This document shows, piece by piece, positions 1 through 6,674 of a DNA stretch of 12,099 nucleotides; the first letter of the stretch is position 1; each line of letters opens with the position of its first letter. Source of the stretch: a virus. A program made the position numbers and the translations under genes. The DNA lies in UHGV virus genome UHGV-1976345; one strand, given 5' to 3'. The notes under the pieces were generated by a model. That model had not been told where the DNA came from, did no database searches, and saw nothing but the letters and a program-made list of their open reading frames with translations.

Positions 1-33
1 ACACTCTTTCCCTACACGACGCTCTTCCGATCT
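1..33. other. Illumina TruSeq adapter (technical sequence, not biological)
   Basis: Bases 1-33 read ACACTCTTTCCCTACACGACGCTCTTCCGATCT, identical to the 3' 33 nt of the TruSeq universal adapter / Read 1 primer site; genomic sequence starts at 34. Confidence 0.95.
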
Positions 34-236
34 CGCAGCTGCTCTGTCATGATTTCCACGTCTGCCAGCTCTGCCGCGAGGTCACTTTCGCTGCCCTGTC
101 CGTTCAGGTTGCGGGCAGCACTGGCCGCCAGTTCAGCGGCCTCTTCTGTCAGTTTCAGGGCCTGTGCATCCGGACCGAAACGCTGCAGGGCCAGACGGTA
201 GAGGGCGGTGCGGGTGAGTTCGGTGTTCCGTGTCAT
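12..236 (-). CDS. Hypothetical small phage protein, 3'-partial; possible all-alpha MazG-like NTP pyrophosphohydrolase fold
   Basis: ORF track 12..236 (-). ATG at 236-234 with GAGGG Shine-Dalgarno about 9 nt upstream. The last 7 residues (RDRKSVV) and the stop are encoded by adapter bases 12-33, so the true C-terminus lies off the contig. KLTEEAAELAAS and DLAAELADVEIM resemble the EExxE and ExxD helices of MazG/HisE-type domains (recollection, not searched). Confidence 0.45.
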   Translation of the reverse strand: MTRNTELTRTALYRLALQRFGPDAQALKLTEEAAELAASAARNLNGQGSESDLAAELADVEIMTEQLRDRKSVV

Positions 237-245
237 GCCGCGCCC

Positions 246-518
246 TCAGTGTTTCCGGTCGACGGTGATGTTCAGGCCGCCTTCTGCAGTGGTTTCCACC
301 CGGTACGGCACCTCGTGCTCTGCCGTGTGGGTGAGTGTGTTCATCAGTACCTGCAGGGCAGCCGCCTTTCCGTTGGTTGCCACAATGGCCTGAGCGGCCA
401 TGCTGATTAACGCCGTCAGGACGTGCTTCACATCGGTGAGGTCGCGGCATTCACACTCGTTGACATAGTGTTCAACAAGGGTTCGGGTGCGCTGTCGTGC
501 TTCCTGTGGGGTAATCAT
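246..518 (-). CDS. Hypothetical protein, 90 aa, phage early-region type
   Basis: ORF track 246..518 (-). ATG at 518-516 with GGGAGGA Shine-Dalgarno 7 nt upstream. Start overlaps the stop of the upstream zinc-ribbon ORF (ATGA) and the stop lies 9 nt from the next start, i.e. operon-style packing. No family recognised. Confidence 0.55.
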   Translation of the reverse strand: MITPQEARQRTRTLVEHYVNECECRDLTDVKHVLTALISMAAQAIVATNGKAAALQVLMNTLTHTAEHEVPYRVETTAEGGLNITVDRKH

Positions 519-709
519 TGCGCGTCCTCCCTGTCAGGGCGGGAGAATTCCATGACGGGCACGTCCGCCGAAAAATGCTGGCTGCAGTACGGACAGACCA
601 GGGTGACGCGTACCGCAGGGATGTGGTATTTACCGGACATCACGGCGATGGCGCTGTGAAAACGCAGGGCTGTTATATCCCTCTCGCACTGAATACATTT
701 AAATATCAT
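515..709 (-). CDS. Small zinc-ribbon protein, 64 aa, two CxxC motifs
   Basis: ORF track 515..709 (-). ATG at 709-707 preceded by AGAGGAG. Protein has C5-x2-C8 and C39-x2-C42 (CIQC ... CPYC). Family not recognised; Com-like and Ogr-like were considered but the spacing differs. Confidence 0.55.
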   Translation of the reverse strand: MIFKCIQCERDITALRFHSAIAVMSGKYHIPAVRVTLVCPYCSQHFSADVPVMEFSRPDREDAQ

Positions 710-806
710 AATTTAATTCTCCTCTGTTTCCGGCGTGCAGAAGCCCACGGCGCTGACGCCGGAATAAAAAAGAAAATGTTTTTATTAAATAATTAACGTG
801 GTGTGT

Positions 807-1235
807 TTACTGCACATCCTGCTCAAAAGGAATTATTGAAAAATCCTCAATGTCGCTTTTAATGGAAATACCGGGAATATTTTTCACGGCCTCTTTTTCA
901 TTCAGGATAGCGTCTTTATTTATTTCCTCTTTTACACGAATAAAGCGCTCAAGCCCCAGACGTCTCAGTAATTCAATAACATTATCCGCCCCACGGATAC
1001 TGACTGATGGCGGACGGTTTCGCCACTGCACCTCGCCGGTGGTGAGGTTAGCGAACTTCACCTTCCCGTTGCCGGTCAGTTCATCACGGTGCGCCTCACA
1101 CCATGTCTGGATACCGGACTGCAGTTCGGCCATGCGTTTTTTCAGGCTCTCGGTGACCCGGCGAAACATAAAACGGCGATCGAGGATGAGGTGGTTACCT
1201 TTGACAAATCGACAGGGCAGGCCAGACTGGCGCAT
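807..1235 (-). CDS. gam: Mu Gam-family host-nuclease inhibitor, probably 5'-truncated or with uncertain start
   Basis: C-terminal ~120 aa of minus ORF 807..1703 (WCEAHRDELTGNGKVKFANLTTGEVQWRNRPPSVSIRGADNVIELLRRLGLERFIRVKEEINKDAIL...GISIKSDIEDFSIIPFEQ) match the Mu Gam C-terminal region closely from memory. Stop TAA at 809-807. The nearest in-frame ATG is 1235-1233 with no convincing Shine-Dalgarno. Upstream of about 1250 the ORF is only the antisense shadow of the sheath gene. Confidence 0.7.
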   Translation of the reverse strand: MRQSGLPCRFVKGNHLILDRRFMFRRVTESLKKRMAELQSGIQTWCEAHRDELTGNGKVKFANLTTGEVQWRNRPPSVSIRGADNVIELLRRLGLERFIRVKEEINKDAILNEKEAVKNIPGISIKSDIEDFSIIPFEQDVQ

Positions 1236-2850: not shown

Positions 2851-3132
2851 ATGAGTGTTGAACTGACGGATAAAGGAAGACGATGTGCGGCACTGGGCAT
2901 GTCAAATGGTACGTGGTTTACCCTCCTTGATATTCCGGGGGTGGAAACCCTTTTTAATACCCGTAAAACCAATGACCCGATTGACTGCACACGTTCAAAG
3001 GCCCGCAAACTGGCGGATTTGATTGAAGCATGGGAGCCTCCCGACCACTGGTTCTCCGGCACCGGCAAATCTGAGGGAAAGACGCTTCTCATCGCTTTCC
3101 TGCGTAACTGCAAGGGGTTTCGCACTTGCTGA
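2851..3132 (+). CDS. Hypothetical 93-aa protein between tube and chaperone genes (possible moron)
   Basis: ORF 2851..3132. ATG sits 2 nt after the tube stop with GGGGG Shine-Dalgarno 7 nt upstream, and is followed by a hairpin terminator. No family recognised. Uses several rare codons (AGA, CGA, GGA, CTT), so coding status is not certain. Confidence 0.45.
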   Translation: MSVELTDKGRRCAALGMSNGTWFTLLDIPGVETLFNTRKTNDPIDCTRSKARKLADLIEAWEPPDHWFSGTGKSEGKTLLIAFLRNCKGFRTC

Positions 3133-3138
3133 CATCAC

Positions 3139-3165
3139 AGGGGCTCCGGCCCCTTCTTCTTAATC
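3139..3165 (+). terminator. Putative intrinsic terminator or attenuator
   Basis: Perfect 6-bp GC-rich stem AGGGGC (3139-3144) / GCCCCT (3149-3154) with 4-nt loop TCCG, followed by T-rich TCTTCTTAATCTCCTTT, 7 nt after the ORF93 stop. Confidence 0.45.
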
Positions 3166-3229: not shown

Positions 3230-3565
3230 ATGTCACAGACCCCATCCGATACTTTTAAATTGTCTTATCCCTTCACCACTGCTGCAGGCACCAGAATTGA
3301 GCAGGTTGAACTGAAACGCCTGACGGTAAAAGACCTGAAGCAGGTGCGCAAAATCAGCAAAAACCCGGCAGACTGGGACGAACCGCTGATTGCCCGCAGT
3401 ACTGGTCTTCTCCCGGAAGATCTCGACAATATGGATCTGGCTGATTACCTGCAGTTACAGAAACGATTTCAGCTCATCACGGGGATGGGTGAGAGCAACC
3501 AGGGCGCTGACGCAGGCGCAGGGGCTGCTGGCGAGATGGTTCCGGTTTCAGCCGGGGGAGATTGA
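3230..3565 (+). CDS. Tail assembly chaperone, gpE-like (P2 E / lambda G analogue)
   Basis: ORF 3230..3565, 111 aa. AGGAG 7 nt upstream of the ATG. Lies immediately upstream of the tape measure gene and has a Gly/Ala-rich C-terminus, as in E/G-type chaperones; an overlapping out-of-frame extension ORF is present. Confidence 0.8.
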   Translation: MSQTPSDTFKLSYPFTTAAGTRIEQVELKRLTVKDLKQVRKISKNPADWDEPLIARSTGLLPEDLDNMDLADYLQLQKRFQLITGMGESNQGADAGAGAAGEMVPVSAGGD

Positions 3566-3647
3566 TGCCCTCGATACTGACGATCTGGAGATGTGGCTGG
3601 AGCAGGCTGAAGAGCAAATAAAAAGCGAGTACGGCGACAAATCATAG
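3230..3647 (+). CDS. Putative frameshift product E+E' (tail assembly chaperone, long form)
   Basis: ORF 3390..3647 (codon starts at positions divisible by 3) overlaps the 3' end of E (codon starts at positions with remainder 2). Its last 30 codons encode an acidic, protein-like peptide (GEIDALDTDDLEMWLEQAEEQIKSEYGDKS) ending 75 nt before the tape measure start. A GGGGG run at 3554-3558, two codons before the E stop, is the candidate slip site. Offset is +1 or -2, not -1. Confidence 0.5.
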
Positions 3648-3652
3648 TACAG

Positions 3653-3673
3653 ACAGCCGCCAGTAGCGGCTGT
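3653..3673 (+). promoter_or_regulatory. Stem-loop between E' stop and tape measure start
   Basis: ACAGCCGC (3653-3660) / GCGGCTGT (3666-3673), 8-bp stem with 5-nt loop, followed by a moderately T-rich tract (TCTGCGTTATCCCC). The tape measure RBS GGAGG follows at about 3709. Confidence 0.3.
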
Positions 3674-3722: not shown

Positions 3723-6674
3723 ATGTCGGGACAGTTTTCAGTCGGCGTTGTTATCGGCGGGATGATTGGCAGCACATTCCGTTCTGCAATGAGCGGTACC
3801 CGCCGTGCGCTTGATTCCCTGAGCGATACCTCACGCCGCCTGCAGGAACGTCAGAACGCTTTAACCCGTGCAACAGAACGTTATGGTCAACTGGGTTCTT
3901 CCCGGATGCAGCATCTCAACAGCGAGCTGCTGCGGGTAAGCCGCACCATGGAGCAAATTGAGCGCCAGCAGCGCCGTCTGTCAGCGGCATCCGCTACCAG
4001 TGATGCGCTGAAAGCTAACCGCATGGCGCTGTATGGTCAGGGGATTGAAGCGTATGGCATGGCACAGACTGTTTATCATACGGTTTCCCCTGCCGTTCAG
4101 CAGTCCATGTCTTTTCAGGACAAAATGATTGATATGTCGATCACCGCAAAATATGACAATAAAACGCGGGATGGACTTGCCGGACAGATAAAAGGCTGGG
4201 CGCTTAAATACAATCAGTATCAGGATGAGCTGCAGGAGGCGGTGGGTTCACTCATCAGCGACAATATTGATAATGTGTCAGATATCGGTTTTCTGATGCC
4301 GGATATTGCCCGCGCGGCAACGGCAACACGCACGTCTGCTCAGGACTGGGCAAAAGTGGCCGCAGTCTGGCAAAACTCCCTGAAAGGTGCGGCCAGAGAT
4401 TTTGGTGCCGTTCAGAATATTATGGCTTATGCCGGTGACCAGGGGTCATTTGAAATCCCGGATCAGGTCAAGTGGATGCAGTCCCTGGCCCCAATGATGG
4501 CGGGTATTGCCAGTGGAAAAGAGGCTGTTGCTGAAATCGGGGCCAGTCTCCAGATAGCAAAAATCGGTGCAGGTTCCACCGACGAAGCAGCCAATAATTT
4601 TAAAAACTTTCTTACCAAAATTTTTGCCCGCGATACTCAGAAACAGTTTGCTGATCTGGGTATTGATTTGCAGGGATCTATTGCGAGTTATAAAGCTGCG
4701 GGGATCTCTCCGATTGAAGGGATGTTGAGTGTTATAGAACGTTACCTCAATGCCAAAAGCCCCGAAGCGCTGGCCGGCTTCAAATCAGCCATGAAAATAA
4801 AGAATGATACGGCAAGAGATGAGGCACTTCAGGCTCTGGCGAAAAACTTTGGTCTGGGCGATATGTTCGCGGATATGCAGGTCATGGCATTTATCCGCCC
4901 GATGCTGGCCAACATGGACAGATATCGAGAGATCCGTGCCGGTGCTCTCAGGGCTGCGGATAACGATTTGCTTGCCAGTGCTTATGATCAGCGGCTGAAA
5001 TCTCCCCTTGAAGCCACTAAAACACTTATGGTCAGCAGTCGCGATCTGGCAATTACGCTGGGCGATCAATTAGCTCCATCTTTTATTTCTTTGACTCAGG
5101 AACTGCTTCCACTCATTCAGGGGGCAAAACACTGGGTAGCGACTCACCCGCAATTTGTCAGTGGGGCTTTTAAGCTCATCAGTGCGCTCCTTGCGATTAA
5201 GATAGCGACTGTTGGTCTCAAACTGGGGCTGAATCTCCTTATTTCCCCCTTTGTAAGTGTCTGGAAAAATGCTGTTTTACTTCGGGCCAACTGGCTTCGT
5301 CTGTCGCTCGCACTGGGGCAAGGCGGTAAGCTCCGCTGGCTGGTGACCGGATTTAGCGCCGTCGCCAGAGGAGCCAGAACACTGAGTGGCGTGCTCTCCG
5401 GGGGGCTGGTTCGCGGAATTATGCTCGCCGGACGTGCTGTTCTCTGGATTGGAGGTGCGCTGATGATGAATCCCATCGGTCTCGTTATCACCGCTGTCGC
5501 GGCAGCAGCTTACCTTATCTACCGCAACTGGGGGGCAGTCAGTGGCTGGTTTAAACAGCGCTGGGCAGACATTCAGGAAGCCTTTAACGGCGGCATTGTG
5601 GGAACTGGTAAGTTGCTGATTAACTGGTCGCCGGCAGGCCTGCTCTATAAAGCCTTTGCGGCTGCGCTGAAATATTTCGGCGTTGCTCTGCCGGCAAAGT
5701 TCACCGACTTCGGTGGCCATCTTATCGACGGTCTGATTAACGGTATCAAAAACAAATGGGGGTCGCTCAAATCCAGTGTAACCGGAATGGGTGACAGCAT
5801 CAGTAGCTGGTTTAAACAGTGCTGGGCTGACATTCAGGAAGCCTTTAACGGCGGTATCGCGGGAACTGGTAAGCTGCTGATTAACTGGTCGCCGGCAGGT
5901 CTGCTCTATAAAGCCTTTGCAGCTGCGCTGAAATATCTTGGTGTTGATCTGCCGGCAAAGTTTACCGACTTCGGTGGCCATCTTGTCGATGGTCTGATTA
6001 ACGGTATCAAAAACAAATGGGAGTCGCTCAAATCCAGTGTAACCGGAATGGGTGACAGCATCAGTGGCTGGTTCAGCGAAAAGCTGGGCATTCATTCGCC
6101 GAGCCGCGTGTTTATGGGCTTTGGTGACAATATCGCGCAGGGGGCCGCCATTGGCCTGCAGCGGACCACTCCGCTTGCAGCTCTGGCCGGGCAGCGAATG
6201 GCCAGTGAACTGCTCCCCAGAATGCCCGTGAGCATCCAGGGGCCAGAAATACGGGATAACACTTCAGGTGTTCGCTTCAGTATGCCGTTGCCCGATATCA
6301 ATGGGTTTATGTCGTCTGCTAAAAATGCGATCGGAGCCGTAATCAATAGTTTGTCTTCCATGCCCGCTATTCCGCTCTCCACCCGGGCATCGATTTTACC
6401 AGGGCAACGTCTGGCAAATGAGATGACACCGGATGTTCCCCGTATCCCCTCGCCTGAAATCCTGGCTGCCGGATATTCAGGCCGTGGTGCAGCTGCAACC
6501 GGCGGTGGAACGTCTGGTGGTATCCAGGTCAGCTTTAATCCTCAGTTTTTCCTCAATGGCAGGGAAACCACAGCGCCTGCAGGACTGACTGGTGCCCTGA
6601 ATATGAGTCTGCATGAGCTGGAAAAAATGCTGGAGCGTCTGCTGGCTCAGAAACAACGTAAGGAGTACCGCTGA
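3723..6674 (+). CDS. Tail tape measure protein (P2 T family)
   Basis: ORF 3723..6674, 983 aa. Position after the E/E' pair, Ala/Gln-rich helical N-terminal region, long hydrophobic Gly/Ala/Leu-rich central segment (about residues 480-600) and an internal tandem repeat are all typical of tape measure proteins. GGAGG 9 nt upstream of the ATG. Confidence 0.9.
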   Translation: MSGQFSVGVVIGGMIGSTFRSAMSGTRRALDSLSDTSRRLQERQNALTRATERYGQLGSSRMQHLNSELLRVSRTMEQIERQQRRLSAASATSDALKANRMALYGQGIEAYGMAQTVYHTVSPAVQQSMSFQDKMIDMSITAKYDNKTRDGLAGQIKGWALKYNQYQDELQEAVGSLISDNIDNVSDIGFLMPDIARAATATRTSAQDWAKVAAVWQNSLKGAARDFGAVQNIMAYAGDQGSFEIPDQVKWMQSLAPMMAGIASGKEAVAEIGASLQIAKIGAGSTDEAANNFKNFLTKIFARDTQKQFADLGIDLQGSIASYKAAGISPIEGMLSVIERYLNAKSPEALAGFKSAMKIKNDTARDEALQALAKNFGLGDMFADMQVMAFIRPMLANMDRYREIRAGALRAADNDLLASAYDQRLKSPLEATKTLMVSSRDLAITLGDQLAPSFISLTQELLPLIQGAKHWVATHPQFVSGAFKLISALLAIKIATVGLKLGLNLLISPFVSVWKNAVLLRANWLRLSLALGQGGKLRWLVTGFSAVARGARTLSGVLSGGLVRGIMLAGRAVLWIGGALMMNPIGLVITAVAAAAYLIYRNWGAVSGWFKQRWADIQEAFNGGIVGTGKLLINWSPAGLLYKAFAAALKYFGVALPAKFTDFGGHLIDGLINGIKNKWGSLKSSVTGMGDSISSWFKQCWADIQEAFNGGIAGTGKLLINWSPAGLLYKAFAAALKYLGVDLPAKFTDFGGHLVDGLINGIKNKWESLKSSVTGMGDSISGWFSEKLGIHSPSRVFMGFGDNIAQGAAIGLQRTTPLAALAGQRMASELLPRMPVSIQGPEIRDNTSGVRFSMPLPDINGFMSSAKNAIGAVINSLSSMPAIPLSTRASILPGQRLANEMTPDVPRIPSPEILAAGYSGRGAAATGGGTSGGIQVSFNPQFFLNGRETTAPAGLTGALNMSLHELEKMLERLLAQKQRKEYR
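5547..6068 (+). repeat. In-frame tandem duplication (2 x 261 bp) inside the tape measure gene
   Basis: Copy 1 at 5547-5807 and copy 2 at 5808-6068 both begin TGGTTTAAACAG; about 17 mismatches over 261 bp (roughly 93% identity by hand count). Encodes two 87-aa units, WFKQ(R/C)WADIQEAFNGGI...GMGDSIS(S/G). A third unit starts at 6069 (TGGTTCAGCG) then diverges. Confidence 0.9.

What the first reader, a model, noticed from the sequence alone, without database searches (positions are those of the whole stretch)
3530..3647. Chaperone E/E' pair with a +1 or -2 frame offset at a GGGGG run
E is read with codon starts at positions of remainder 2 mod 3; the protein-like extension (EIDALDTDDLEMWLEQAEEQIKSEYGDKS, stop 3645-3647) has codon starts divisible by 3, i.e. 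+1 or -2 relative to E. The -1 frame gives only a short Arg/Trp-rich junk peptide. The P2 E/E' and lambda G/GT long forms are made by -1 slippage on canonical heptamers; none is present here. The only slip-prone element is GCC GGG GGA GAT TGA (3551-3565), where tRNA-Gly on GGG can re-pair one base downstream.
Basis: partly seen in the sequence, partly recalled or inferred. Interest (0 to 1): 0.55.

Follow-up and report, generated by a model that had tools for sequence, protein, structure and literature searches.

The report
Phage tail chaperone +1 frameshift site
The overlapping gene pair is real: it is the tail-assembly chaperone of a Mu/P2-type E. coli prophage, and its long form needs a +1 shift.

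Summary
The window is the tail module of a BcepMu-like (Bcepmuvirus) E. coli prophage. It is 99.6% identical to phage PhiKM, and the same region is present in 637 of 5426 complete E. coli genomes.

E (3230-3565, Pfam Phage_TAC_7) lies between the tube and tape-measure genes. An E'-like reading frame, +1 relative to E, ends at 3645-3647.

The G run at 3554-3558 is not the shift site:
- It is only the Pro-Gly-Glu codons of E' and is absent in diverged relatives.
- In 58 of 117 relatives the E frame stops upstream of it.
- The +1 frame is under purifying selection well upstream of it.
- The P2 GpE-like domain spans it.

The coding signature switches from the E frame to the +1 frame at CGA_UUU_C (3464-3470). 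TTT_C is invariant in about 150 loci from Enterobacterales, Burkholderia, Pseudomonas and Ralstonia phages, even where TTT is a rare codon. It is the only motif common to the narrow interval in which the shift must occur.

The most likely mechanism is that tRNA-Phe slips +1 from UUU to UUC. This gives a 138-aa E+E' (80 + 58 residues).

UUU_C is a known +1-prone site (E. coli argI, influenza PA-X). I found no annotation or paper that describes it for this family. Nothing here has been tested experimentally.

The parts
3230..3565 (+). Gene E: tail assembly chaperone, short form (111 aa)
   Evidence: Pfam PF10109 Phage_TAC_7, E=3.5e-22, residues 8-81. It lies between the tube gene (2327-2848) and the tape-measure gene (3723-6674). 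RefSeq calls it 'phage tail assembly protein'.
3464..3470 (+). Proposed +1 shift site CGA_UUU_C: Arg79 in the E site, Phe80 in the P site, and the first base of the next codon
   Evidence: TTT_C is invariant in about 150 loci. The Arg codon before it is CGA in nearly all Enterobacterales and Ralstonia-group loci. The coding signature switches frame here. It is the only shared motif in the interval bounded by +1-frame stops 3 to 6 codons upstream and E stops about 9 codons downstream.
3471..3647 (+). E' coding segment in the +1 frame (58 aa plus the TAG stop). E+E' = 3230-3469 joined to 3471-3647, 138 aa
   Evidence: There are no stop variants in this frame in 70 distinct relatives. The synonymous fraction of codon variants is 18% (3470-3527) and 32% (3528-3619), against 6-9% in the other two frames. 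E' is 58 aa in 104 of 117 loci.
3486..3488 (+). Invariant +1-frame Trp codon, six codons after the shift site
   Evidence: TGG is invariant, while the overlapping E-frame residues vary: Met/Leu/Val (all NTG codons) followed by Gly/Ala/Val/Asp. This shows the +1 frame is already being read here.
3528..3626 (+). P2 GpE-like domain of E' (LARWFRFQPGEIDALDTDDLEMWLEQAEEQIKS)
   Evidence: PF06528 Phage_P2_GpE matches over profile positions 4-36 of 37, E=0.0016-0.01, 16-18 bits, below the 23-bit cut-off. A family profile hits P2 E+E' residues 108-134 better than 2000 shuffles, and hits the Pasteurella phage -1-frame E' at 2e-10. PGAP names it 'GpE family phage tail protein'.
3554..3558 (+). It is the CCG GGG GAG (Pro-Gly-Glu) codons inside the E' domain, not the conserved shift site
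   Evidence: G5 is present in 85 of 117 loci and replaced elsewhere by other codons. It lies downstream of the E stop in 58 of 117 loci.
3654..3672 (+). Stem-loop CAGCCGC-CAGTA-GCGGCUG just after the E' stop and before the tape-measure gene
   Evidence: The stem is kept and the loop varies in KP12 and Phi06_2974B. L043 has a different complementary stem. Its function was not examined.

Best explanation
E and E' are the two forms of the tail assembly chaperone of a BcepMu-like myophage.

Most ribosomes read E to a stop whose position varies between relatives (3563-3565 in this window). A fraction shift +1 when peptidyl-tRNA-Phe sits on UUU (3467-3469) and re-pairs with UUC (3468-3470). Alternatively, Phe-tRNA binds UUC directly. 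Decoding then continues with AGC at 3471.

The product is a 138-aa E+E': residues 1-80 of E (the whole Phage_TAC_7 domain), ending ...LQKRF, followed by SSSRGWVRATRALTQAQGLLARWFRFQPGEIDALDTDDLEMWLEQAEEQIKSEYGDKS.

By analogy with lambda G/GT, the shared N-terminal part is expected to bind the tape measure, and the E' part to recruit the tube protein.

What is shown: the gene context, the frame offset, the point at which selection switches frame, and the invariance of TTT_C.
What is inferred: that the event is ribosomal, that it is +1 rather than another route, how efficient it is, and what the two domains do.
For: 1. Context and homology. The gene order is sheath, tube, E, tape measure, gpU, gpX, gpD. 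The fused product aligns with P2 E+E' and with a BcepMu gp41+gp42 fusion.

2. Frame switch. I compared distinct codon variants in 70 distinct relatives:
- Upstream of 3467: the synonymous fraction is 31% in the E frame with 0 stop variants, against 9% in the +1 frame with 7 stop variants.
- 3470-3527: E frame 9% with 2 stop variants, +1 frame 18% with 0.
- 3528-3619: E frame 6% with 15 stop variants, +1 frame 32% with 0.

3. Bounds on where the shift can occur.
- Upstream: +1-frame stops lie 6 codons before Phe80 (at 3450), 5 codons before in L089 and 3 codons before in the Ralstonia group.
- Downstream: the E frame stops 9 codons after Phe80 in L122 and in the Bise group.
- The +1-frame Trp at 3486 is invariant.

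4. Motif conservation.
- CGA TTT CA(G/A/T) is found in about 115 Enterobacterales loci, while flanking Leu and Gln codons vary synonymously.
- All seven invariant two-fold-degenerate residues upstream use both of their codons. Phe80 uses only TTT.
- The following residue varies (Gln, His, Arg, Leu) but its codon always starts with C.
- All 34 further loci from the Burkholderia, Pseudomonas and Ralstonia groups have E' in the +1 frame and TTT_C at this position. TTT is only 13 of 100 Phe codons in BcepMu tail genes and 0 of 14 in Bise.
- BcepMu reads UCC_UUU_CGC, almost identical to the influenza PA-X site UCC_UUU_CGU.

5. Precedent. UUU_Ynn is described as especially prone to +1 shifting in bacteria, and different tailed phages use -1, -2 or +1 for this gene pair (PMC5009743).
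Against: - There is no experimental evidence for the fusion protein or its junction.
- None of the usual +1 stimulators is present. The next E-frame codon, CAG, is the common Gln codon (121 CAG against 18 CAA in the window's genes). I saw no Shine-Dalgarno-like sequence upstream. There is no conserved downstream RNA structure (alifold -5 kcal/mol with 0 covarying pairs; z = -0.86).
- TTT_C occurs in frame 8 other times in the window's tail genes, so the tetranucleotide alone does not make a site programmed.
- The preceding codon differs between lineages (CGA; UCC, GCC or UCU; GCA, GCG or AAA), so its contribution is unclear.
- The 16 codons after the site are only moderately conserved in the +1 frame, and in this stretch both frames are translated.
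Confidence: 0.75

Rival explanations
1. One reading: a +1 (GGG to GGG) or Mu-like -2 slip of tRNA-Gly on the GGGGG run at 3554-3558, giving ...VSAG(G)-EIDALD... with a 29-aa extension.
For: - Mu's verified -2 site is also a G5 run, CGG_GGG_CGA.
- G5 is present in 85 of 117 relatives.
- The Gly codon at this position is always GGG wherever the residue is Gly.
Against: - The E frame stops upstream of the run in 58 of 117 loci.
- The run is absent in Brenneria, Pectobacterium, Xenorhabdus, Superficieibacter, Ralstonia, Burkholderia and Pseudomonas relatives that still keep a +1 E'.
- The +1 frame is conserved as protein for 29 codons upstream of the run. For example, TTC CGG TTT changes to TTT AGA TTT, which is silent in the +1 frame (Phe-Arg-Phe) but creates a stop in E.
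- This junction would remove the first third of the GpE-like domain.
- Low-level incidental slipping on the run in this particular lineage is not excluded.
Confidence: 0.03
2. E' is not a fusion. It is translated on its own as a small 'GpE family' protein from an internal start in the +1 frame, as PGAP annotates it.
For: - RefSeq records call stand-alone CDSs at positions equivalent to 3507-3647 and 3489-3647.
- Many relatives have an ATG at 3510 (the Met in ...LMQAQGLL).
Against: - The start is not conserved. Codon 3510 encodes Met, Thr, Ile, Trp or Lys, and codon 3489 encodes Ala, Val, Leu or Ile.
- Conservation of the +1 frame, with no stops, reaches back to the Phe codon, including the invariant Trp at 3486.
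- Homologous E' segments in P2 and in Pasteurella phage AFS-2018a are reached through canonical -1 heptamers.
- The invariance of TTT_C would have no explanation.
Confidence: 0.08
3. The shift occurs at another G-rich site in the overlap, GGG_A at 3482-3485 or GGG_G at 3521-3524.
For: - Both sites allow tRNA-Gly to re-pair one base downstream.
- The block 3512-3535 is identical in the four closest phage sequences.
Against: - 3521-3524 reads GGGA in L075 and L076, GGGC in L034, and other sequences in diverged relatives.
- Codon 3482 is GGC or AGC in several relatives.
- The variants at 3515 and 3518 are silent in the +1 frame.
- The invariant Trp codon at 3486 lies upstream of 3521.
Confidence: 0.04
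4. The overlap is an artefact: a homopolymer sequencing error, or a decaying pseudogene.
For: - Some assemblies carry 1-base deletions in or next to the G run, or elsewhere in the overlap, which give in-frame fusions: L079, L084, L097, L113, P0004, P0010 and P0025.
- The window's prophage carries a large internal deletion.
Against: - The same two-frame arrangement occurs in hundreds of complete genomes and in isolated phages.
- Purifying selection acts on both frames, each in its own segment.
Confidence: 0.01

Closest known systems
Phage P2 gpE / gpE+E' (-1 frameshift at T_TTT_TTG)
   Same: - Same Pfam chaperone family (PF10109).
- Same position between the tube and tape-measure genes.
- The shift lies just after the chaperone domain.
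- The E' domain is homologous (FHWPPSEL...W in P2, WFRFQPGEI...W here).
   Different: - P2 shifts -1 on a canonical heptamer.
- Here the offset is +1 and there is no heptamer.
- The E' match to PF06528 is below Pfam's cut-off.
Phage Mu gp41 / gp41-42 (verified -2 frameshift on CGG_GGG_CGA)
   Same: - Transposable-phage tail chaperone pair in the family Pfam describes as 'E, or 41 or 14'.
- The long form is in the +1/-2 frame.
   Different: - Mu slips back 2 bases on a G5 run.
- Here the G5 run is not the conserved site.
- At UUU_C a -2 re-pairing is not possible, because it would place tRNA-Phe on GAU.
Lambda gpG / gpGT
   Same: Same logic: a chaperone between the major tail gene and the tape-measure gene, with a minority frameshift-extended form. 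The reported G:GT ratio is about 30:1 (PMC5009743).
   Different: No detectable sequence similarity, a siphovirus, and a -1 shift on G_GGA_AAG (the heptamer is recalled from memory, not checked here).
UUU_C / UUU_Y +1 sites: influenza A PA-X (UCC_UUU_CGU), the E. coli argI error site, Yersinia YopN-TyeA
   Same: Same slippery tetranucleotide. tRNA-Phe pairs better with UUC than with UUU. BcepMu's UCC_UUU_CGC nearly matches the PA-X cassette.
   Different: - Different genes and hosts.
- PA-X relies partly on a rare codon in the A site, whereas here the A-site codon is common.
- Efficiency here is unknown.
BcepMu gp41/gp42/gp43 as annotated in GenBank AY539836
   Same: Same gene family and order. 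gp41 corresponds to E and gp42 to the E' frame.
   Different: - The record proposes slippage from gp42 into gp43.
- The comparative data instead support gp41 joining gp42 by a +1 shift at UCC_UUU_C.
- The 'gp43' stretch is antisense to a small ORF that looks like a membrane protein. That reading is from the sequence only and was not tested.

Membership tests
Tail assembly chaperone pair with programmed frameshift (lambda G/GT, P2 E/E+E', Mu 41/41-42) | Located between the major tail/tube gene and the tape-measure gene | tested here: met
   Tube 2327-2848, E 3230-3565, tape measure 3723-6674. The order is the same in PhiKM, KP12, BcepMu, Bise and P2.
Tail assembly chaperone pair with programmed frameshift (lambda G/GT, P2 E/E+E', Mu 41/41-42) | A second overlapping ORF in another frame, conserved as protein and without a conserved start codon of its own | tested here: met
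   The +1 frame has no stop variants from 3468 to 3644 in 70 distinct relatives and a raised synonymous fraction. The candidate start codons at 3489 and 3510 are not conserved.
Tail assembly chaperone pair with programmed frameshift (lambda G/GT, P2 E/E+E', Mu 41/41-42) | A conserved slippery sequence inside the overlap | tested here: met
   TTT_C is invariant in about 150 loci. It is a +1-type motif, not an X_XXY_YYZ heptamer.
Tail assembly chaperone pair with programmed frameshift (lambda G/GT, P2 E/E+E', Mu 41/41-42) | Both a short form and a frameshift-extended form are made, and both are needed for tail assembly | not testable with these tools
   This needs protein detection and genetics.
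Pfam PF10109 Phage_TAC_7 (E, 41, 14) | Match above the gathering score | tested here: met
   78.7 bits against a cut-off of 25, E=3.5e-22, residues 8-81.
Pfam PF06528 Phage_P2_GpE (the E' segment) | Match above the gathering score (23 bits) | tested here: inconclusive
   - 15.8 bits (E' alone) and 18.3 bits (fusion), over profile positions 4-36 of 37.
- The family profile hits P2 E+E' at 13.3 bits, against a maximum of 7.9 bits in 2000 shuffles.
- PGAP uses the name 'GpE family'.
   The run is absent in 29 of 117 loci. The E stop lies upstream of it in 58 of 117. +1-frame conservation starts 29 codons earlier.
UUU_C +1 frameshift sites (PA-X type) | An in-frame UUU followed by C, conserved beyond what the protein requires | tested here: met
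   Phe80 is always TTT. The seven other invariant two-fold-degenerate residues upstream all use both of their codons. TTT is kept in high-GC hosts where it makes up 0-13% of Phe codons.
UUU_C +1 frameshift sites (PA-X type) | A slowly decoded codon in the A site, or another stimulator | tested here: not met
   - The A-site codon is CAG, the common Gln codon.
- No conserved RNA structure was found.
- No Shine-Dalgarno-like sequence was seen upstream.
- The conserved rare CGA in the E site is a candidate modifier but is untested.
UUU_C +1 frameshift sites (PA-X type) | A junction peptide showing Phe followed by the +1-frame residue | not testable with these tools
   This needs mass spectrometry of E+E'.

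The most novel reading that the evidence does not exclude
A whole clade of Mu/P2-hybrid (BcepMu-like) phages of beta- and gamma-proteobacteria makes its long tail chaperone by a programmed +1 shift on a bare UUU_C. There is no stop codon, no rare A-site codon, no Shine-Dalgarno stimulator and no RNA structure, and a lineage-specific E-site codon is conserved (the rare CGA in enterobacterial and Ralstonia phages, UCC in BcepMu as in influenza PA-X). This would be a natural, phylogenetically deep bacterial counterpart of PA-X-type frameshifting. It is currently unannotated in RefSeq and GenBank and is annotated differently, probably wrongly, in the BcepMu type genome.
Probability: 0.6. Interest if true: 0.5.

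Novelty: new variant of a known kind. Interest (0 to 1): 0.4.

Why it matters
Annotation:
- Hundreds of E. coli, Salmonella and other genomes, and several phage records, annotate this locus as E plus an orphan 'GpE family' ORF, as E alone, or (in BcepMu) with a slippage model that the comparative data contradict.
- A joined CDS with a +1 shift at UUU_C would correct these records.

Recoding biology:
- The site would be an easily manipulated E. coli example of UUU_C +1 shifting.
- About 150 natural variants of the E-site and A-site codons are available to mine.
- This is the class of sites that Firth et al. (PMC3498833) predicted.

Evolution:
- Homologous E/E' pairs reach the same E' domain by different routes. 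P2, Pasteurella phage AFS-2018a and an Acidobacteria contig use -1, and this clade uses +1.
- Mu, whose chaperone Pfam places in the same family, reaches its own extension by -2. I did not test whether the Mu extension is homologous to E'.
- This illustrates how easily the direction of the shift is exchanged.

Tried and rejected
- The G run as shift site: rejected.
- GGGG at 3521-3524 was my first alternative after seeing the upstream TAG in KP12. I rejected it because relatives have GGGA or GGGC there, and because the +1 frame is conserved further upstream.
- A -2 shift at UUU_C: no re-pairing is possible, since it would place tRNA-Phe on GAU.
- Transcriptional slippage: there is no homopolymer longer than 5 bases in the overlap.
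- A downstream stimulatory RNA structure: none was found. Alifold gave -5 kcal/mol with no covariation, and the z-score was -0.86. The predicted long-range pairing of CGAUUUC with GAGAUUG (3558-3564) has no covariation.
- NCBIfam scan of E and E': no family matched.
- PDB sequence search with the fused product: no hit.
I replaced it with three single-protein scans.
- Xu et al. 2004 (Mol Cell) could not be read. The Mu site was taken from the GenBank record and sequence instead.
- Literature searches found no description of a UUU_C shift in a phage tail chaperone. Only open-access papers and bioRxiv were searched.
- Structure prediction was not run. It would not discriminate between the candidate sites.

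Full report
WHAT THE WINDOW IS

Pfam assigns the ORFs around the finding to a contractile-tail module:
- sheath (ends at 2327)
- tube (2327-2848)
- a small DUF7739-like ORF (2851-3132)
- a Phage_TAC_7 chaperone (3230-3565, E=3.5e-22)
- tape measure (3723-6674)
- gpU, gpX and gpD

The region is 99.6% identical to Escherichia phage PhiKM (genus Bcepmuvirus) and about 82% identical to Klebsiella phage KP12 and to phage Phi06_2974 B. It is present in 637 of 5426 complete E. coli genomes, 580 of them at 99% identity or more and one at 100%. The sequence is therefore real and common. It is not a homopolymer error.

CHECK OF THE OBSERVATION

The frames are as stated:
- E has codon starts of remainder 2 mod 3 and ends GCC GGG GGA GAT TGA (3551-3565).
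- The frame with codon starts divisible by 3 (+1 or -2 relative to E) reads ...EIDALDTDDLEMWLEQAEEQIKSEYGDKS and stops at 3645-3647.
- The -1 frame is Arg/Trp-rich and has no relatives.
- There is no canonical -1 heptamer in the overlap.

Two points in the description are incomplete:
- The +1 frame is open from 3390, not just from the G run.
- The overlap contains other XXX_N sites: TTT_C at 3467, GGG_A at 3482 and GGG_G at 3521.

WHY THE G RUN IS NOT THE SITE

1. Stops upstream of the run. In KP12 and Phi06_2974 B the E frame ends at a TAG equivalent to 3542-3544, upstream of the run. The three substitutions that create this stop (TTC CGG TTT to TTT AGA TTT) are all silent in the +1 frame, which reads Phe-Arg-Phe. 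Across 117 loci of this type, the E frame stops 9, 11 or 25 codons after Phe80 in 58 loci, which is before the G-run position.

2. The run is not conserved. G5 occurs in 85 of 117 loci. Elsewhere the same codons read CCT GGG GAG, CCA GGG GAG, CCN AGT GAG, CCA AAT GAA and others. The run is simply Pro-Gly-Glu, or Pro-Ser-Glu, of E'.

3. The +1-frame peptide upstream of the run is highly conserved. QAQGLLARWFRFQPGEID... is 92-100% identical in most relatives even where E is only 66-86% identical.

4. The run lies inside the E' domain. The region 3528-3626 matches Pfam Phage_P2_GpE along the whole profile, though below threshold. A profile of this E' family hits P2 E+E' residues 108-134 better than 2000 shuffles, and hits the -1-frame E' of Pasteurella phage AFS-2018a at E=2e-10. 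A multiple alignment of fused products places P2 'VAVIFHWPPSELYPMSLTELITW' opposite 'LLARWFRFQPGEIDALDTDDLEMW'.

WHERE THE FRAME CHANGES

I collected about 150 related loci:
- 80 from IMG/VR
- 34 from GTDB genomes
- contigs that encode a short-E variant
- several GenBank phages
- 34 relatives of the BcepMu, Bise and Ralstonia-phage chaperones

In 70 distinct enterobacterial sequences I compared the distinct codon variants at each codon position, frame by frame:

| Segment | E frame: synonymous fraction, stop variants | +1 frame: synonymous fraction, stop variants |
|---|---|---|
| 3377-3466 | 31%, 0 | 9%, 7 |
| 3470-3527 | 9%, 2 | 18%, 0 |
| 3528-3619 | 6%, 15 | 32%, 0 |

The -1 frame stays at 6-9% with 8-9 stop variants in every segment. 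The switch therefore falls at 3467-3470.

Hard bounds agree with this:
- +1-frame stops occur as close as 3450, 5 codons before Phe80 in L089, and 3 codons before it in the Ralstonia group.
- E stops occur only 9 codons after Phe80 in L122 and in the Bise group.
- The +1-frame Trp at 3486-3488 is invariant, while the overlapping E-frame residues vary as NTG codons followed by G-starting codons.

Inside this interval the only shared feature is TTT_C:
- Enterobacterales have CGA TTT CA(G/A/T), with single exceptions of CGG and CGC.
- The Ralstonia group has CGA TTT CTG.
- The BcepMu group has TCC, GCC or TCT, then TTT, then CGC or CGT.
- The Bise group has GCA, GCG or AAA, then TTT, then CAA or CAG.
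- L165 has CGA TTT CGG.

Several observations show the motif is conserved beyond what the protein needs:
- Phe80 is the last invariant residue of the chaperone domain.
- It is the only invariant two-fold-degenerate residue in the stretch that never uses its synonymous codon.
- TTT is kept in hosts where it is rare: 13 of 100 Phe codons in BcepMu tail genes and 0 of 14 in Bise.
- The residue after it changes (Gln, His, Arg, Leu), but its codon always starts with C.

MECHANISM

The best-supported reading is a +1 ribosomal shift in which tRNA-Phe moves from UUU to UUC, or binds UUC directly. The product is E(1-80) + 58 residues = 138 aa.

A -2 event cannot re-pair here. There is no long homopolymer for transcriptional slippage. 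Independent initiation of E' is unlikely, because no start codon is conserved and conservation of the +1 frame reaches back to the Phe codon.

Precedents:
- UUU_Ynn is described as especially prone to +1 shifting in bacteria, with argI and YopN-TyeA as examples (PMC5009743).
- Influenza PA-X uses UCC_UUU_CGU. Its authors predicted a class of UUU_C sites with restricted E-site and A-site codons (PMC3498833).

The roles of the two domains are inferred from lambda G/GT: the common part binds the tape measure and the extension recruits the tube protein (PMC5009743).

CAVEATS

- I found no stimulator. The A-site codon is common, I saw no Shine-Dalgarno-like element, and there is no conserved RNA structure.
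- TTT_C occurs in frame 8 other times in the window's tail genes.
- The conserved rare CGA (8 occurrences in 3371 codons of the window's genes) may act through the E site. This is speculation.
- Efficiency is unknown. The ratios reported for Mu (about 2.2%) and lambda (about 30:1) suggest that a low rate would be enough.
- A minor incidental slip on the G run in this particular lineage cannot be excluded. The Gly codon at that position is always GGG.

COMPARISON WITH WHAT IS KNOWN, AND NOVELTY

The kind is well known. Tailed phages make two chaperone forms by frameshifting, using -1, -2 or +1 in different phages.

Among homologues of this E/E' pair:
- P2 uses -1 at T_TTT_TTG.
- Pasteurella phage AFS-2018a uses -1 at A_AAG_GGA.
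- An Acidobacteria contig has its E' in the -1 frame.
- Mu, whose chaperone Pfam places in the same family, uses -2 on CGG_GGG_CGA. I did not test whether the Mu extension is homologous to E'.

What appears to be undescribed is the +1/UUU_C solution of the BcepMu clade:
- RefSeq annotates E alone, or E plus a stand-alone 'GpE family' ORF with arbitrary starts.
- PhiKM and KP12 annotate E only.
- The BcepMu record proposes slippage from gp42 into gp43, whereas the data support gp41 joining gp42.
- Eight literature searches found no description. Only open-access papers and bioRxiv were searched.

VERDICT

The pair and the +1 offset are right. The G-run site and junction are not.
- I rate this a new variant of a known kind, of moderate interest (0.4).

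Noticed in passing
window 1-1156, junction near 1155: Window 34-1156 is 100% identical to the early region (Gam family gene and hypothetical genes) of the same kind of prophage. From 1155 onward the window matches the late region, starting inside the sheath gene, whose first ~85 codons are missing. The window is therefore either an internally deleted (defective) prophage lacking lysis and head genes, or a chimeric contig.
   Followed up: partly
window 3654-3672: Stem-loop CAGCCGC-CAGTA-GCGGCTG, followed by TTCTGCGTT, lies directly after the E' stop. The stem is conserved and the loop varies in KP12 and Phi06_2974B, and L043 has a different complementary stem. It could be an attenuator or an RNA-stabilising element in front of the tape-measure gene.
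   Followed up: no
window 3139-3154: Terminator-like hairpin AGGGGCTCCGGCCCCT followed by TCTTCTT, between the DUF7739-like ORF and E. The scan found 2 overlapping matches in the region, against 1.1 expected in shuffles.
   Followed up: no
L005 (BcepMu AY539836) 4859-5364: The GenBank annotation treats gp42 as the lambda G equivalent and gp43 as its slippage product. By eye, the 'gp43' stretch reads as the antisense strand of a small ORF that looks like a membrane protein. A minus-strand ORF sits in the same place in phage Bise and in contig L122, but not in the window.
   Followed up: partly
L079, L084, L097 (G-run region); L113 (15 nt upstream of TTT); proteins P0004, P0010, P0025: Several assemblies carry 1-base deletions that put E and E' in one frame. 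Examples are the 138-aa 'fusions' ...VSAGEIDALD... (P0004 in 12 contigs, P0010 in 8). Apirhabdus CP138906.1 has its deletion just before the shift site. These are probably sequencing errors or decay. They could also be natural E+E'-only alleles.
   Followed up: partly
L087 = NZ_PJIO01000028.1 ('Arthrobacter sp. GMC3', 8241 nt, coverage 6.9): This contig encodes an E protein 100% identical to the window's, and it matches IMG/VR contig UViG_2865794485_000001 in length and coordinates. It is very likely enterobacterial contamination in an actinobacterial assembly.
   Followed up: no
window 3464-3470 and 3558-3564: Both the single-sequence fold and the alignment fold pair the shift site CGAUUUC with GAGAUUG, which lies next to the G run 90 nt downstream (7 pairs). 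There is no covariation and both arms are constrained by coding, so this is probably coincidence.
   Followed up: partly
window 2851-3132: A conserved 93-aa ORF lies between the tube gene and E. It has only a sub-threshold DUF7739 match (24.9 bits against a cut-off of 27) and is annotated as hypothetical in all relatives. P2 and BcepMu have no gene annotated at this position.
   Followed up: no
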